From an uncultured Candidatus Saccharibacteria bacterium (GTDB lineage: Bacteria > Patescibacteriota > Minisyncoccia > Phycocordibacterales > UBA5272): DNA of 62,373 nucleotides. Shown here one piece after another: positions 26,107 through 39,452 of this stretch (position 1 is its first letter; every line of letters begins with the position of its first letter). The notes under the pieces are model-generated. The model saw only the letters and a program-made list of their open reading frames with translations. It was not told where the DNA came from and made no database searches. The stretch spans positions 7,150 through 69,522 of the forward strand of contig CAZUPO010000003.1 of assembly GCA_964621595.1 (NCBI GenBank). The letters are read 5' to 3'. The position numbers and the translations under genes are program-made.

Positions 26107-28124
26107 AATGCTTTGTCGTTTGGTTTGCGACCAAGGAAGTTTGTAATAAGCGCCATCTCGTCAACGCTCCCCCCTTTTTCAAGAACTTCTTTTCTCCAAC
26201 GTAGTCCGACTGTCGTGTTAGTCATTACATTTTTATTTCCTTTCAATTCAAATTGTTTATAGGCATCACAAGCGTACACAAGTGCCCACAAGTACGAGTA
26301 ATACCCAGCGTCATATCCAACCAAGTGACCAAATCCTGCAGGGAATAATGTTTCCTTTTCTGGAAGTGTGATGTTGAAGTGTAGTTTGTTCATCGCAATC
26401 CATGCTTTTCTTCCATCCTTGACGCGCCCAGTGTGTAAGTCCATATCCATCTTTCCTTGGAGGAGTTGTCTTGTGTAGAAAAGTCCATTCTGAAACTTTT
26501 TCCCTTGAATAATTCTTTCAATCATTGTCGGTGGCATCCGCTTCCCCTTCATGTAGTGATGTGATAATTTTGTAAGCACCATCTTGTTCCAGACCCAGTT
26601 CTCCATAATCTGTGAAGGTGTCTCAACAAAGTCCCATGCAACGTTCGCTCCTGCCTGTGACTGAATGCGTGCTCGCGTGATAGTCATGTGAAGCAAGTGT
26701 CCGAATTCATGGAACAATGTTTCCACCTCACCGATTGAGAGTAGTGATGGTGTCTTCTTGTGTGGTGCTGGAAAGTTACACACCATAACAGAATATGGCG
26801 CAACATATTCTTCACTCTTGTATTCTTTTTCATATGGCACCACAACATCGAACATTCCCGCATGGGAGAACTTCCCCTCTCGAGGAAATAGATCCATAGA
26901 AAAATATCCCAAGAGTGAATTTGAGGGTGAATTCTTCCCTTTTTTATCATGTATTTCAAATGTTTCCACATCTTTATGCCAAAGGGATACGTTTCTCTTC
27001 TTGATACTTAGTGAAAATAAATTTGAAAACATAGTAAACATAACATCTCGAACATGGTTAAGAGGAAAATATGTACGCACGGTCTCTGGGTCAAGGTCGT
27101 ACAACTTCTTTTTAAGTTCTGTACCTACGTATCCAAGATCATAGTGTTCAAGTTCTGTGATACCAAGGGTCTTTGCATGTGCACGGAGATCTTTCATATC
27201 TTTTTCTTTGTACGGAGCGAGACGCTTCAGAAGTTTGTCTTGAAATTCATCAACTGTTGTTGCATTCTTTGCCATGCGTCGCTCGGTAACAAAGTCAGCA
27301 TGGTGGTTATAAGAAAGAATAGATGCAATCTTGTGACGGATGACGACGAGGTCGTGAATGATTTTCAAATTTTTCGCCCCTCCTTTCTTCAAATTCTTCT
27401 CCGCTAACTCTTTTCGCTTTGCTCTATTCTTTGCCTCACCTAAAAATGGACCGATGTGTGGGTATGCGAGGGTAACGATATAGCGACCATCAGTGTGTCG
27501 TGGAAGTGAAGAGATAAATCTCTGCGAAAGACCAGCAAGTTCTTCTTCCGTACAGAGAATATAGTCCTGGTACTCGGTAATATACTGACGAAACTTGGTT
27601 GAAAGGTCTGTTGCTTGCTTTAATAACTTTTTTAATTCATTCTGCTTTTTTTCTGATAGATCAAATCCCATACGACGAAAATCACGCATCGTATCCTCAA
27701 GAAGCAAGATATCTTCTGCCCGGAGATTTTTCTTTTCTTGTAGATAGTTGCCTTCGTAGTACTCTTTCATCGCGCGATAGAGGTCTTTGTCGTACACTAC
27801 ATCCACTACTTTTTGTGACACATCTGTTGCTACGGCGTGCGCGGTATCGCGGATCTTTTTGTTAGTGGACACTTCGGAGAGTAGCGCCATCTTGCTGAAA
27901 AAACTTTCGAACTTGTCATCACAACGTTCAAGAGCGTAGAGGGTGTTGAGATATGTCCTCTTTTCTTTCTTGATCTTTTTTATATCGCCAAATACCTTCT
28001 TTTTGTGAGAGATGTACTCCCTTGCGACACGCTTCATATCGCCCTCGGTCATGTGTATCCATGCAAAATCTTTATTGGAAAGTGGGATAGTGATTTGTCG
28101 TTTTACACTCTGTTTTGTATTCAT
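26085..28124 (-). CDS. M3-family zinc oligopeptidase (thimet/oligopeptidase A-like)
   Basis: 'HEFGHLLH' zincin motif in an M3-like context. 679 aa. Confidence 0.88.
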   Translation of the reverse strand: MNTKQSVKRQITIPLSNKDFAWIHMTEGDMKRVAREYISHKKKVFGDIKKIKKEKRTYLNTLYALERCDDKFESFFSKMALLSEVSTNKKIRDTAHAVATDVSQKVVDVVYDKDLYRAMKEYYEGNYLQEKKNLRAEDILLLEDTMRDFRRMGFDLSEKKQNELKKLLKQATDLSTKFRQYITEYQDYILCTEEELAGLSQRFISSLPRHTDGRYIVTLAYPHIGPFLGEAKNRAKRKELAEKNLKKGGAKNLKIIHDLVVIRHKIASILSYNHHADFVTERRMAKNATTVDEFQDKLLKRLAPYKEKDMKDLRAHAKTLGITELEHYDLGYVGTELKKKLYDLDPETVRTYFPLNHVRDVMFTMFSNLFSLSIKKRNVSLWHKDVETFEIHDKKGKNSPSNSLLGYFSMDLFPREGKFSHAGMFDVVVPYEKEYKSEEYVAPYSVMVCNFPAPHKKTPSLLSIGEVETLFHEFGHLLHMTITRARIQSQAGANVAWDFVETPSQIMENWVWNKMVLTKLSHHYMKGKRMPPTMIERIIQGKKFQNGLFYTRQLLQGKMDMDLHTGRVKDGRKAWIAMNKLHFNITLPEKETLFPAGFGHLVGYDAGYYSYLWALVYACDAYKQFELKGNKNVMTNTTVGLRWRKEVLEKGGSVDEMALITNFLGRKPNDKAFLEEVVG

Positions 28125-28186
28125 GGTTGTTCCATTCTAGCATATATAATTAAGCAAACTGAGAGCAACTATTTTTATACAATTAG

Positions 28187-28207
28187 AAAACCGAGCGCGG
28201 GGCTCGG
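28187..28207 (-). terminator. Terminator of GC-island B
   Basis: Minus strand CCGAGC-cccgc-GCTCGG followed by TTTTCTAATT. Confidence 0.6.
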
Positions 28208-28340
28208 GATTCCTGGTTCATCCTTCTAGGGGATTGGCAATGTGGTGCTGGCGGGGGATTCTTGTTTCTTTTTCTTTTTTATTTTCTTTTTTTTCTTGTT
28301 TTCCCCCGCCTCTTTACCGACTTCTTGCCTTGGCTGGATC

Positions 28341-28457
28341 TTACTGCGCCAGCCGCGCCACGTAGGCGATCTTCTTCTCGGCAGCCTTGACGTCCGTGCT
28401 CGCAGCGCCGATCTTCAGCTTCTTGGCGGTTTCCGTGGCGTGTTTCTTCGCAGCCAT
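28341..28457 (-). CDS. Candidate 38-aa basic protein in GC-island B (MAAKKHATETAKKLKIGAASTDVKAAEKKIAYVARLAQ)
   Basis: GAGGAG SD 6 nt upstream of ATG 28457. 33 of 38 codons end in G/C by hand count (ORF ~61% GC) in an AT-rich genome. TAA at 28341-28343. Confidence 0.5.
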   Translation of the reverse strand: MAAKKHATETAKKLKIGAASTDVKAAEKKIAYVARLAQ

Positions 28458-28548
28458 TGCGATCTCCTCACAGGTTGTTGACCAGGATACGGGTTGATAC
28501 CGCGACCACCGATGTGACAGGTGGCCGTGGAAACATCCCGCAAATATG

Positions 28549-28576
28549 AGTGTACTCCCTTGTCCACTTTTTGCAA
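28549..28576 (-). promoter_or_regulatory. Possible promoter of GC-island B
   Basis: Minus strand TTGCAA - 16 nt - TACACT, inside/next to the palindrome CCACTTgcaaaAAGTGG that directly follows the tag stop codon. Confidence 0.3.
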
Positions 28577-28580
28577 GTGG

Positions 28581-29120
28581 CTATCTTTTTCTGTACTTCT
28601 TACACTTTAGATCATGACTTCCGGGAAGCATGTTGATGCTCATTAGAAATTCACCCACTATCTCCCCTCCGACAAATTTAAAATGTTGTTTAAACATGTG
28701 CACCCATGCTTTCTTATCTTCTTGTGCTTCTTGTTTACATAGCAGTAACCACTTTTTAAAACTACCACATTCTTTTGTGATCTTTGCTATTGCTTGTGCG
28801 TTATATATCGCCGCGTGTATCTTGAGGCGATTACGGATAATGCTTGCATCATTCATGAGTCGCACAATATCTTTCTCTTTATACTTGGCAACTTTTGCAA
28901 TAGAAAAATTATCATACGCTTTTCTAAACCCCTTCTCCTTGAGTAAAATAGTTCGCCATGAAAGCCCTGCCTGGTTAATCTCCATCACAAGTCGTCCAAA
29001 AAGTTCGTCATCATCATCAATCGGTACACCATAATGATGATCATGATATATCCGATCAACATCATGCGGATCAGTAATGGTCGCAACATACTTACAGTAT
29101 GGATGGAAAAGTTTTTTCAT
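28581..29120 (-). CDS. tag: DNA-3-methyladenine glycosylase I
   Basis: 'YHDHHYGVP..DD.ELFG.LV.EINQAGLSW.TIL.K...FR.AY..F' is typical of Tag. 179 aa. Confidence 0.9.
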   Translation of the reverse strand: MKKLFHPYCKYVATITDPHDVDRIYHDHHYGVPIDDDDELFGRLVMEINQAGLSWRTILLKEKGFRKAYDNFSIAKVAKYKEKDIVRLMNDASIIRNRLKIHAAIYNAQAIAKITKECGSFKKWLLLCKQEAQEDKKAWVHMFKQHFKFVGGEIVGEFLMSINMLPGSHDLKCKKYRKR

Positions 29121-38633: not shown

Positions 38634-39142
38634 ATCGTATATTTTTTGTGCACACTTACAGGTAGTCCTGCCTGCTTTGCCTTGTCTATTGTATCTTGAG
38701 TTCCGGTACTATTATTTACCTGAAAGGCATACACATCGTCTGAAAAAGTAACTTCTTCATTATGACGAATATCATACTCTTCTTGAGTGATGTCTCCGGA
38801 ATCTTTTCGTACTTCAAAAATGGCACTTGGGTTTCGTTCTTTTATGAGGGCAAGTACGTATTCAATATCGTCGATGTCTCGATCTGTAACTGGGTCATGC
38901 TTCCAATTTTTTCTATAATCTCTAATGAAATGATCTAATCTGGCGGGAATAAAAATTCTGATCTTGGTACACTCTGGGTTAAGTTTGAGCCACTCATCCA
39001 TCGCAAAAAAGTCCACTCCCGTTGCACCTCCTGTCACCATACCATCCCCACGTTCAAAAACCTTGCGAGCGTACATTCTCACATCGTGTTCAACTTCTTT
39101 ATTCGTTAGCCTCCATGTGCCTGTAAAAATAATCCACTTCAT
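38630..39142 (-). CDS. SLOG-superfamily (DprA/LOG/YpsA-like Rossmann) protein
   Basis: 'GDGMVTGGATGVDFFAMDEW' GGAxGxD glycine loop after a beta-strand 'MKWIIFTG'. Its stop overlaps the convergent gene's stop (cTTAg). Start at ATG 39142. Confidence 0.55.
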   Translation of the reverse strand: MKWIIFTGTWRLTNKEVEHDVRMYARKVFERGDGMVTGGATGVDFFAMDEWLKLNPECTKIRIFIPARLDHFIRDYRKNWKHDPVTDRDIDDIEYVLALIKERNPSAIFEVRKDSGDITQEEYDIRHNEEVTFSDDVYAFQVNNSTGTQDTIDKAKQAGLPVSVHKKYTI

Positions 39143-39151
39143 AATGTAGCG

Positions 39152-39203
39152 CGCCCCGGTCACTACTTCGTGGACCGTTGTTCGGTCCTTTCGTGCCGGG
39201 GCG
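39152..39203 (-). other. GC-rich nested hairpin between the island-C ORF and the SLOG gene
   Basis: Outer stem CGCCCCGG/CCGGGGCG (39152-59 / 39196-203) encloses the inner hairpin GGACCG-ttgtt-CGGTCC (39172-88). No T-run follows. Confidence 0.6.
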
Positions 39204-39228
39204 TTTCCTTCGTTGTTCTGTGCGCGGA

Positions 39229-39393
39229 TCAGGGGTTCTCGTCCCCTTCCTCCGCCGGCGTCACCTCGAGGAGGTGGCGGGTACGGCAGAGCATCGCTGC
39301 CTGCACGTGCCGGTCGGGCATCGGGCGGCAGCCGCCCTCGACGGGCTTCAGGCTGCCTTTCTGCGGGGTCTGGCCAGCGGGGGTCGTGTCCAT
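39229..39393 (-). CDS. Candidate 54-aa protein in GC-island C (MDTTPAGQTPQKGSLKPVEGGCRPMPDRHVQAAMLCRTRHLLEVTPAEEGDENP)
   Basis: GGAGGA SD 5 nt upstream of ATG 39393. ~71% GC, with 49 of 54 codons ending in G/C (hand count). The three plus-strand ORFs here look like Arg/Ser-rich mirror frames. Confidence 0.45.
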   Translation of the reverse strand: MDTTPAGQTPQKGSLKPVEGGCRPMPDRHVQAAMLCRTRHLLEVTPAEEGDENP

Positions 39394-39423
39394 CTGTTTC
39401 CTCCAGAACTTGTAGGGACCACC

Positions 39424-39452
39424 ATTATACATGAAAAATTAAGAGAAGTAAA
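39424..39452 (-). promoter_or_regulatory. Possible promoter of GC-island C
   Basis: Minus strand TTTACT - 17 nt - TATAAT, ~30 nt upstream of the ATG. Confidence 0.4.

What the first reader, a model, noticed from the sequence alone, without database searches (positions are those of the whole stretch)
28187..28576. GC-island B: 38-aa basic ORF with structured leader and a 3' UTR containing a 43-nt polypurine loop clamped by a 9-bp G/C stem
Seen in the sequence: directly after the tag stop codon lies a ~390-nt GC-rich block. On the minus strand it has a possible TTGCAA-16-TACACT promoter and a ~90-nt leader with GC hairpins (e.g. CCACGGCCACC...GGTGGTCGCGG). GAGGAG then sits 6 nt before ATG 28457, opening a 38-codon ORF (MAAKKHATETAKKLKIGAASTDVKAAEKKIAYVARLAQ). 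Of its 38 codons, 33 end in G/C. Downstream, GGCGGGGGA (28310-28302) pairs with TCCCCCGCC (28258-28250) around a loop consisting mostly of A with some G and C (AAAACAAGAAAAAAAAGAAAATAAAAAAGAAAAAGAAACAAGAA). A CCGAGC/GCTCGG terminator follows at 28207-28191. Inference: this is a foreign or specialised micro-gene. Its N-terminus (MAAKK...) echoes the Lys/Ala micro-ORF at 10408-10473. The clamped poly-A/G loop could be a protein- or ribosome-binding platform, or a slippery Lys-coding tract.
Basis: partly seen in the sequence, partly recalled or inferred. Interest (0 to 1): 0.65.

Follow-up and report, generated by a model that had tools for sequence, protein, structure and literature searches.

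The report
Captured remnant of betaproteobacterial H1-like gene
The GC-rich block between tag and the M3 peptidase gene of this wastewater Paceibacterium (a CPR bacterium) is real foreign DNA: a rearranged, transcribed leftover of a lysine-rich histone-H1-like gene from a Burkholderiales-type betaproteobacterium, and its 38-codon ORF is a chimeric orphan rather than a member of any known protein or RNA family.

Summary
The host is a roughly 42% GC Paceibacterium from wastewater and activated sludge. ORF38 has the codon signature of a high-GC donor (GC3 0.87, against 0.30-0.43 in native genes). It has no protein homologue in 5.8 billion or 1.84 billion sequences and no Rfam, Pfam, NCBIfam, PHROG or PADLOC match.

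The origin can be traced. A 70-nt block (24 nt of 5'UTR including the SD, the ATG, and about 15 codons) is 87% identical to the start of a conserved, about 100-aa Lys-rich "histone H1-like" gene in a 67% GC Burkholderiales-type MAG. The 9-bp G/C "clamp" is that gene's own terminal hairpin, with the GCAA tetraloop replaced by a 43-nt A-rich tract. The Lys-rich body and the conserved C-terminus are missing.

Independent assemblies cross both borders, so the block is not a chimera. The tag-M3 slot is hypervariable: the sister lineage carries an unrelated GC3-rich micro-gene there. In two activated-sludge metatranscriptomes, the island core is the only specific part of the 62-kb window recovered.

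Best reading: a horizontally acquired, rearranged gene remnant that is transcribed and possibly translated, with no demonstrated function. Interest is moderate to low.

The parts
28150..28590 (.). Variable segment of the tag-M3 slot. Homology with the sister lineage (L007) stops inside the last codons of tag and resumes at the M3 promoter and start.
   Evidence: blastn of the window slot against the L007 slot matches only the flanks. L007, L009, L010, L029 and L030 each carry different content here.
28549..28576 (-). Putative promoter: TTGCAA (28576-28571), 16-nt spacer, TACACT (28554-28549). The predicted transcription start is about 28541-28543.
   Evidence: Read from the sequence. It matches 8 of 12 consensus positions and was not flagged by the scan. 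RNA contigs end at 28521 and 28531, while DNA contigs run through this region.
28458..28542 (-). 5' leader, containing an 8+2-bp GC hairpin at 28530-28500. The SD GAGGAG lies at 28469-28464.
   Evidence: The hairpin folds at -16.8 kcal/mol, z -3.0. The whole leader has z -1.5 only.
28412..28481 (-). Block homologous to the 5' end of the betaproteobacterial histone-H1-like gene: 24 nt of 5'UTR including the SD, the ATG, and about 15 codons.
   Evidence: 61 of 70 positions identical to L012:4708-4777, E 3e-17. Orthologues in other lineages have different leaders.
28341..28457 (-). ORF38 (38 codons plus TAA). It is chimeric: residues 1 to about 15 are H1-like, and residues 16-38 are of unknown origin. 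It is predicted to form a single helix.
   Evidence: GC3 0.87; no homologue; helix over residues 3-37, pLDDT 73.7.
28311..28329 (-). GGCAAGAAGTCGGTAAAGA: a short colinear match to the SGKKKSVKK-coding part of the H1-like gene. Its TCGGTAAAGA also resembles the TCGGGAACGA that lies just before the donor's terminal hairpin.
   Evidence: The microhomology-deletion reading is inference.
28250..28310 (-). 9-bp G/C stem (28310-28302 and 28258-28250) enclosing a 43-nt A-rich loop (28301-28259). The arms and flanks are homologous to the donor gene's GGCGGGGGGC-GCAA-GUCCCCCGCC hairpin.
   Evidence: (16 of 18 and 12 of 12 flank/arm matches). The tract is also present in the relative seen in run X14, with a 1-nt deletion.
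28185..28207 (-). Canonical intrinsic terminator: CCGAGC-cccgc-GCUCGG followed by UUUUCU.
   Evidence: The two substitutions in the X14 variant both fall in the loop.

Best explanation
Island B is horizontally acquired DNA. It is a rearranged remnant of a lysine-rich histone-H1-like nucleoid-protein gene from a high-GC Burkholderiales-type betaproteobacterium living in the same wastewater and activated-sludge communities. It sits in a hypervariable intergenic slot (tag to M3 peptidase) of a Paceibacterium.

What is retained from the donor: the last ~24 nt of the 5'UTR with the Shine-Dalgarno, the start codon and about 15 codons, a short internal piece, and the terminal GC hairpin. What is lost: the Lys-rich repeat body and the conserved C-terminal ARTALNPAAAWPFPTG motif. 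About 83 nt of unknown, high-GC3 coding-type sequence now follows codon 15 and supplies a stop codon. This creates a chimeric 38-aa basic helical ORF. The hairpin's GCAA tetraloop has been replaced by a 43-nt A-rich tract.

How it probably works (inferred): transcription starts at about 28541 from the weak TTGCAA-16-TACACT promoter at the island border. The transcript runs through the clamp hairpin and ends at the CCGAGC/GCUCGG-U terminator, giving an RNA of about 350 nt. The intact donor SD and AUG probably allow ORF38 to be translated.

What is shown: the foreign origin, the homology blocks, the real genomic junctions and the presence in RNA libraries. What is inferred: the transcription start, the termination site, translation, and my view that the unit is a young and probably near-neutral by-product of DNA uptake rather than a specialised device.
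For: Host identity:
- M3 peptidase relatives are named Candidatus Paceibacterota or Parcubacteria. The runs are from wastewater and activated sludge.

Foreign signature:
- ORF38 has GC3 0.87, against 0.30-0.43 in native genes. No native 38-codon window out of 10,087 reaches that value.

Homology to the donor gene:
- 61 of 70 nt are identical (E 3e-17) to L012:4708-4777.
- There are colinear matches to GGCAAGAAG(AAG)TCGGTAAAGA and to TCGGnAAnGAGGCGGGGG...TCCCCCGCCAGC.
- The L012 gene is a ~100-aa Lys-rich protein that is syntenic (nrdA-nrdB-DUF2442-X-SLT) in several betaproteobacterial loci.
- It hits NCBIfam hist_H1_lk_Burk at E 3e-12.
- Neighbouring proteins cluster with Burkholderiales and Nitrosomonadaceae entries.
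- Only the L012 lineage shares the leader.

Not a chimera:
- Eight contigs are identical, and DNA contigs in runs X5, X6 and X7 cross the borders.

Slot variability:
-.

RNA:
- Exact contigs of 215-217 nt (28305-28521 and 28317-28531) are the only specific part of the 62-kb window recovered in two independent metatranscriptomes.
- The M3 gene is absent from those runs.

No family membership:
-.
Against: - Residues 16-38 of ORF38 and the 60-nt upstream leader have no identified source. The true donor sequence, or the order of rearrangements, is therefore unknown.
- A 97%-identical variant (run X12) has only one change in the ORF, and it is synonymous. The leader has 5 substitutions and 1 indel (Fisher p 0.016-0.047). 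This hints at constraint on the ORF and argues against pure neutrality.
- In runs X8 and X9 neither the Paceibacterium's 5S rRNA nor any of its mRNAs is recovered. The RNA contigs could therefore come from another carrier of the same sequence.
- In the study where the organism is abundant (runs X1-X4), depth over the island equals that of the flanks. That is uninformative and may reflect DNA carry-over.
- The promoter match is weak.
Confidence: 0.65

Rival explanations
1. A domesticated, functional micro-protein gene. The captured H1-like 5' end drives strong expression of a 38-aa basic amphipathic helix. The peptide acts in the Paceibacterium, or on its host, as a nucleic-acid-, ribosome- or membrane-binding peptide and is kept by selection.
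For: - The SD (GAGGAG), its 6-nt spacing and the ATG are intact.
- Period-3 GC pattern is present.
- The peptide is predicted as a single helix.
- The X12 variant has 1 synonymous and 0 non-synonymous changes in the ORF, against 6 changes in the leader.
- The island core is the only part of the window seen in two metatranscriptomes.
- The donor-type mRNA is extremely abundant (depth ~1100), so its initiation region is probably strong.
Against: - There is no homologue in 5.8 billion or 1.84 billion proteins.
- The GC3 signature reflects donor history, not present selection.
- The X14 relative has replaced the 5' part, and the sister lineage carries an unrelated gene in the slot.
- The variant statistics rest on only 7 changes.
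Confidence: 0.22
2. A structured non-coding RNA (sRNA). The A-rich 43-nt loop, held open by the G/C clamp, serves as a binding platform, for example for S1-, Hfq-like or other A-tract-binding proteins. On this reading the ORF is incidental.
For: - The predicted transcript folds better than shuffles (z -4.8).
- The clamp hairpin has z -5.9.
- All five changes in the X14 variant avoid both stems.
- The polypurine tract is unique in the window.
Against: - No Rfam match, even at E<=10.
- The stems are inherited from a protein-gene terminator.
- The leader alone is not significantly structured (z -1.5).
- The period-3 GC pattern indicates a coding history.
- 5 of 5 changes outside 30 of 167 stem positions is expected by chance 37% of the time (my calculation).
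Confidence: 0.08
3. An artefact. Either the assembly is a chimera that joins betaproteobacterial reads into a Paceibacterial contig, or the RNA signal belongs entirely to another organism.
For: - The GC jump is sharp.
- The run X5 contig breaks at 28481-28489, exactly at the border of the homology block.
- No Paceibacterial flanks are recovered in X8, X9 or X12.
Against: - Eight contigs from different samples and two assemblers have identical junctions.
- Contigs in X6 (27811-28359), X7 (28312-28707), X3 and X4 span both borders.
- The island is only 87% identical to the nearest betaproteobacterial sequence over 70 nt and is otherwise unique, so it cannot have been assembled from that organism's reads.
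Confidence: 0.03

Closest known systems
Histone H1-like DNA-binding proteins of Burkholderiales (NCBIfam NF038053 hist_H1_lk_Burk; Lys-rich, Pfam HC2-like). The specific subgroup here is the ~93-106-aa form encoded downstream of nrdAB-DUF2442.
   Same: DNA homology covers the last 24 nt of the 5'UTR, the SD, the ATG and about 15 codons (87% over 70 nt). A short internal piece and the arms and flanks of the terminal GC hairpin also match.
   Different: ORF38 does not hit NF038053 or HC2. It lacks the (K/A)n repeat body and the conserved ARTALNPAAAWPFPTGSRP C-terminus. It is 38 aa rather than about 100. Its residues 16-38 have no counterpart in the family. It resides in a 42% GC CPR genome.
Horizontally transferred genes and genomic islands in Patescibacteria (Gios et al. 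2025, mSystems, PMC12455944)
   Same: A compositionally atypical insertion in a streamlined CPR genome, with a donor outside the recipient's lineage.
   Different: This one is sub-genic (about 0.4 kb), rearranged and non-metabolic. It lies in a slot that holds different micro-genes in sister lineages. The donor is traced at the nucleotide level rather than by gene trees.
Intrinsic terminators and 3' stabilising GC hairpins with GNRA tetraloops
   Same: The 28191-28207 hairpin plus U-run is a textbook intrinsic terminator. The clamp stem corresponds to the donor's 10-bp hairpin with a GCAA loop.
   Different: The clamp's loop is 43 nt of A-rich sequence, and no U-run follows it. I know of no described terminator class with such a loop (own knowledge, not searched exhaustively).
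Orphan or de novo small ORFs created from gene fragments (pseudogene-derived sORFs)
   Same: A lineage-restricted short ORF that uses an inherited SD and start codon, with a new C-terminus produced by rearrangement.
   Different: The inherited part here comes from another phylum by HGT rather than from a resident gene.

Membership tests
hist_H1_lk_Burk (NF038053) / HC2-type histone H1-like proteins | Protein scores above the family HMM cut-off (80 bits for NF038053; 40 bits for PF07382) | tested here: not met
   ORF38 gives no hit at E<=1 in NCBIfam and no hit at E<=0.1 in Pfam. The L012 donor-type protein itself scores 47 bits, E 3e-12, which is below the cut-off.
hist_H1_lk_Burk (NF038053) / HC2-type histone H1-like proteins | Long Lys/Ala-rich repeat region | tested here: not met
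   ORF38 has 8 K and 11 A in 38 residues, and only the first 15 residues are Lys-rich. L012 has about 50 K in its first 55 residues.
nrdAB-DUF2442-linked H1-like subgroup (L012, L015, L018, L022, L032) | Conserved C-terminal motif ARTALNPAAAWPFPTG(S/T)RP | tested here: not met
   The motif is absent from ORF38, and no DNA similarity to that region was found by blastn of the island against L012.
nrdAB-DUF2442-linked H1-like subgroup | Nucleotide homology of the 5'UTR/start region and the terminal hairpin | tested here: met
   61 of 70 identical (E 3e-17), plus 16 of 18 and 12 of 12 at the hairpin flanks and arms.
Any Rfam RNA family (riboswitch, sRNA, tmRNA and others) | Covariance-model score at or above the gathering threshold | tested here: not met
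   There is no hit at gathering thresholds. The best sub-threshold hit is SAM_alpha at 14.8 bits against a threshold of 36, E 1.1. ARAGORN finds no tmRNA.
Intrinsic (Rho-independent) terminator | GC-rich hairpin immediately followed by a U-run | tested here: met
   28207-28191 followed by TTTTCT is flagged and folds at -11.5 kcal/mol. The clamp hairpin at 28310-28250 has no U-run, so it does not meet this definition.
Type I toxin-antitoxin small toxin | Short hydrophobic or transmembrane peptide with an overlapping antisense RNA | tested here: not met
   The peptide is hydrophilic and basic, and is predicted as a soluble helix. No antisense promoter or terminator pair was found apart from a terminator-like hairpin on the + strand at 28564-28580. 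There is no PADLOC hit.
Integron-type gene cassette or site-specific insertion module | A shared recombination site (attC-like) or repeats at cassette borders across different cassettes | tested here: not met
   The window island and the L007 island share only the tag and M3 flanks. The island has no repeat elsewhere in the window. No integrase lies nearby among the ORFs.
Phage or plasmid moron | Similar sequence present on phage or plasmid records | tested here: not met
   There is no blastn or tblastn match in the phage collection, and no meaningful match in plasmids (only a 35-nt, E 2e-3 hit to two Rhizobium records; tblastn none). There is no pattern match in IMG/VR and no PHROG hit.

The most novel reading that the evidence does not exclude
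The tag-M3 slot may be a capture point where Paceibacteria repeatedly install and strongly express small pieces of DNA taken from a high-GC partner. The sister lineage carries an unrelated GC3-rich micro-gene at the same place, and two more high-GC micro-gene islands lie elsewhere in the window.

Island B would then be both a molecular record of a physical Paceibacterium-Burkholderiales (host) association in activated sludge and a newly born gene. Its H1-like N-terminal peptide and A-tract RNA would be the organism's most abundant transcript, used to interact with host or self nucleic acids.
Probability: 0.1. Interest if true: 0.75.

Novelty: new member of a known kind. Interest (0 to 1): 0.4.

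Why it matters
Hosts of Paceibacteria are almost entirely unknown. A nucleotide-level trace of recent DNA flow from one specific Burkholderiales-type lineage gives a testable host or partner hypothesis for this CPR organism. In the same sludge, that lineage's H1-like mRNA is among the most abundant transcripts.

The island also gives a clean example of how a streamlined genome can turn a fragment of a foreign, highly expressed gene into a new transcribed micro-ORF. It shows that a single intergenic slot can turn over quickly between sister lineages.

For annotation, it warns that a GC-rich 'micro-gene' with a perfect SD and terminator can be a gene remnant.

Tried and rejected
Searches that found nothing for the island or ORF38:
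- Rfam at gathering thresholds and at E<=10: nothing credible.
- tmRNA: none found by ARAGORN.
- No match in Pfam, NCBIfam, PHROGs, PADLOC or PDB.
- Plasmid and phage blastn and tblastn: no phage match; in plasmids only a trivial 35-nt match to two Rhizobium records.

Searches that gave limited results:
- The metagenome pattern scan for the leader found only two more copies from the L012 species.
- I sampled five more betaproteobacterial orthologue loci looking for a closer donor. None has the window's leader, the ORF38 middle or an A-rich loop.

Ideas considered and rejected:
- Retro-transfer of a polyadenylated mRNA. The homology does not begin at the donor's mRNA 5' end: the donor contig extends at least 60 nt further upstream. 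The A-tract also sits inside the hairpin loop, not after it.
- The polypurine tract as a decayed Lys-coding repeat. The alignments are low-complexity only, and the tract lies between the two hairpin arms.
- Programmed frameshift into the Lys/Arg-rich -1 frame (…GKKSVKRRGKTRKKRK*). I saw no slippery site before the stop codon.
- Specific homology between island B and the 21-aa ORF at 10408-10473.

Left unresolved:
- The depth comparison in study P1 (runs X1-X4) was uninformative, because the contigs are long and evenly covered.

Full report
**1.

Reading both strands confirms every element at the stated coordinates.
- tag ends with TAG at 28583-28581, and the M3 peptidase starts at 28124.
- The 456-nt spacer between them reaches 55-62% GC, in a window that averages 41.7%.
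- On the minus strand, in order:
  - TTGCAA (28576-28571), 16 nt, TACACT (28554-28549).
  - A leader with a GC hairpin at 28530-28500.
  - GAGGAG at 28469-28464.
  - ATG at 28457, opening a 38-codon ORF that ends with TAA at 28343-28341.
  - A 9-bp stem, GGCGGGGGA (28310-28302) with TCCCCCGCC (28258-28250), around a 43-nt loop (A35 G5 C2 T1).
  - A hairpin plus T-run terminator at 28207-28191, which the scan flags.

The features are more than chance would give.
- 33 of 38 codons end in G/C. No 38-codon window out of 10,087 in native genes exceeds 25.
- The clamp hairpin has z -5.9.
- The polypurine tract is unique in the 62 kb.
- The promoter is only an 8-of-12 match and was not flagged.

**2. 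Host and context**

- Relatives of the M3 peptidase are annotated Candidatus Paceibacterota, Parcubacteria or similar.
- The sequence occurs in wastewater and activated-sludge runs.
- Eight independent contigs (JGI and Logan) carry the ORF with identical sequence and the same neighbours.
- DNA contigs in other runs cross both island borders.
- The island is therefore real and not an assembly chimera.

**3. No family membership**

- Rfam gives nothing at gathering thresholds or at E<=10, and ARAGORN finds no tmRNA.
- ORF38 has no homologue in the 5.8-billion-protein word search or in the exhaustive HMMER scan of 1.84 billion representatives.
- It has no Pfam, NCBIfam, PHROG, PADLOC or PDB match.
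- AlphaFold without an alignment predicts one helix over residues 3-37, at pLDDT 73.7.
- GC1/2/3 of 0.58/0.45/0.87 is the coding signature of a high-GC genome. Native genes have GC3 of 0.30-0.43.

**4. Where it came from**

Laying contigs from activated-sludge metatranscriptomes on the island exposed a very abundant foreign contig. Its depth was about 1100 in X8 and 55 in X9, and it matched 28420-28481. Its flanking 30-mer led to a 67% GC MAG contig, L012. Its NrdB and DUF2442 neighbours cluster with entries named Burkholderiales, Nitrosomonadaceae and similar.

L012 encodes a 100-aa protein, MAAKKKAKKTAKKKKKKKASGKKKSVKKK…ARTALNPAAAWPFPTGSRP.
- It hits NCBIfam hist_H1_lk_Burk at E 3e-12, which is below the family cut-off, and hits Pfam HC2 weakly.
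- The gene is syntenic (nrdA-nrdB-DUF2442-gene-SLT) in every betaproteobacterial locus sampled.

The island aligns to it in three colinear places.
- 61 of 70 nt (E 3e-17), covering 24 nt of 5'UTR with the SD, the ATG and about 15 codons (28481-28412).
- GGCAAGAAGTCGGTAAAGA (28329-28311).
- The hairpin with its flanks, TCGGnAAnGAGGCGGGGG…TCCCCCGCCAGC.

In the donors the hairpin is a 10-bp stem with a GCAA tetraloop. In the window the loop has been replaced by the 43-nt A-rich tract. Only the L012 lineage shares the leader; the other orthologues differ. The source was therefore close to that lineage. The direction of transfer, from betaproteobacterium to Paceibacterium, follows from the composition and from the conserved synteny in the donors.

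**5. What is missing or unexplained**

- The Lys-rich body and the conserved C-terminus are absent.
- About 83 nt (28411-28330), encoding ORF38 residues 16-38 and the stop codon, have no identified source. The same is true of the upstream leader (28482-28542).
- One plausible step is inference only. In L012, TCGGTAAAGA (4806-4815) and TCGGGAACGA (5046-5055) are imperfect direct repeats. A deletion between them would produce the window's junction …GTCGGTAAAGA|GGCGGGGG.
- The A-tract has CAAG at both ends, and CAAG is part of the donor loop. This is compatible with an insertion or expansion inside the loop, but I cannot show the mechanism.

**6. The slot is hypervariable**

- The closest relative (M3 80% identical; L007/L008) carries an unrelated GC-rich micro-gene between tag and M3. 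It has its own promoter (TTGACT…TATAGAAT) and two terminators, and its ORF has GC3 of 0.84-0.90. The two islands share only the flanks.
- More distant relatives carry other content in the slot:
  - L009 has a 56-aa ORF on the opposite strand (my reading).
  - L010 and L011 have two hydrolase genes.
  - L030 has a 57-aa ORF plus coaE.
  - L029 has a different upstream neighbour.
- A freshwater run (X14) contains a contig that shares 28159-28325. That stretch holds the native M3 upstream region, the terminator and the A-tract hairpin. It differs by 3 substitutions and 2 one-base deletions, none in a stem. Upstream of 28325 it diverges completely. The 3' module is therefore older than the present 5' part, or the 5' part has been exchanged.

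**7. Expression**

- In two independent activated-sludge metatranscriptomes, exact or 1-mismatch contigs cover 28305-28521 (X8) and 28317-28531 (X9).
- The rest of the 62-kb window yields only conserved tRNA and 23S fragments. The M3 gene is not indexed in those runs.
- The RNA contigs stop 10-20 nt short of the predicted transcription start, whereas DNA contigs (X12, X7) run through the -10 box.
- The 3' ends coincide with the low-complexity tract, where assembly breaks.
- This supports a discrete, relatively abundant transcript.
- However, the organism's 5S rRNA is also missing, so I cannot exclude that another carrier of the same sequence produced the RNA.
- In the study where the organism is abundant (X1-X4), coverage is flat across island and flanks, which is uninformative.

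**8. Constraint**

- A 97% variant (X12) has one change in the ORF, and it is synonymous (GCT to GCC at codon 2).
- The leader has five substitutions and one insertion. Fisher p is 0.047 for ORF against leader, and 0.016 when the 3'UTR part is included.
- This is suggestive but rests on only seven events.

**9. Verdict**

I can now name the donor gene family and a donor lineage.
- The 'clamp' is an inherited terminal hairpin with an A-rich insertion. It is not an evident purpose-built platform.
- ORF38 is a chimeric orphan.
- I rate the explanations as follows:
  - Transcribed and possibly translated HGT remnant, probably near-neutral: about 0.65.
  - Functional domesticated micro-protein: about 0.22.
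  - Functional sRNA: about 0.08.
  - Artefact: about 0.03.
- HGT into Patescibacteria is known (PMC12455944), so this is a new member of a known kind.
- The residual interest lies in three things: the possible host signal, the repeated capture of high-GC micro-genes in one slot, and the unexplained A-tract.

Noticed in passing
window 10701-11338 (ORF 10762-11319, minus strand): A second high-GC island. It holds a 185-aa ORF (GC 57%, GC3 0.72) with a GGAGG RBS and a GC hairpin terminator. It has no Pfam, NCBIfam or PHROG hit, only a negligible PADLOC hit (E 0.046), and no match in plasmids, phages or IMG/VR. It is found only in this same Paceibacterial context.
   Followed up: partly
window 39130-39445 (ORF 39229-39393, minus strand): A third island, up to 74% GC. 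It holds a 54-aa ORF (MDTTPAGQTPQKG…) behind GGAGGA, with GC3 of about 0.9 in the correct frame, and is followed by a long GC hairpin just before the next gene's start. It has no family hit, and the product is not on record in the gene index.
   Followed up: partly
window 10408-10473 (minus strand), terminator about 10352-10375: A 21-aa Lys/Ala ORF, MAAKKKAAKKKTAKKKSAKRA, of native composition (44% GC), followed by a clean intrinsic terminator. It resembles H1-like proteins only through low-complexity repeats that match in many registers, and has no specific similarity to island B.
   Followed up: partly
L007:4687-5000 (also L008:203-520): The sister Paceibacterium (M3 80% identical) carries an unrelated GC-rich micro-gene in the same tag-M3 slot. 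It has a TTGACT-17-TATAGAAT promoter and two terminator hairpins. Its ORF is (MLAKTGDH)MQKNHGNDVDCLQLQTPTQKKAGRPIKRI, with GC3 of 0.84-0.90.
   Followed up: partly
L012:4732-5034 and orthologues L015, L018, L022, L032: A conserved betaproteobacterial family of ~93-106-aa Lys-rich proteins with an invariant C-terminal ARTALNPAAAWPFPTG(S/T)RP motif, always located downstream of nrdA-nrdB-DUF2442. Its mRNA is among the most abundant contigs in one activated-sludge metatranscriptome (depth about 1100).
   Followed up: partly
run X1, a 547-nt contig matching window 28445-28480: A third sequence context shares the 36-nt SD/start core (2 mismatches) but has different flanks on both sides. It suggests further relatives of the donor gene in the same wastewater.
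   Followed up: no
window 61990-62065: ARAGORN calls a tRNA with an undetermined two-base anticodon ('ac'), while Rfam scores the same region as a normal tRNA (56 bits). It sits between the 5S and 23S rRNA genes.
   Followed up: no
window 28564-28580: The hairpin CCACTT-gcaaa-AAGTGG lies directly after the tag stop codon and overlaps the island's putative -35 box. On the + strand it is followed by a T-rich run and is flagged as terminator-like, so it could stop antisense transcription.
   Followed up: no
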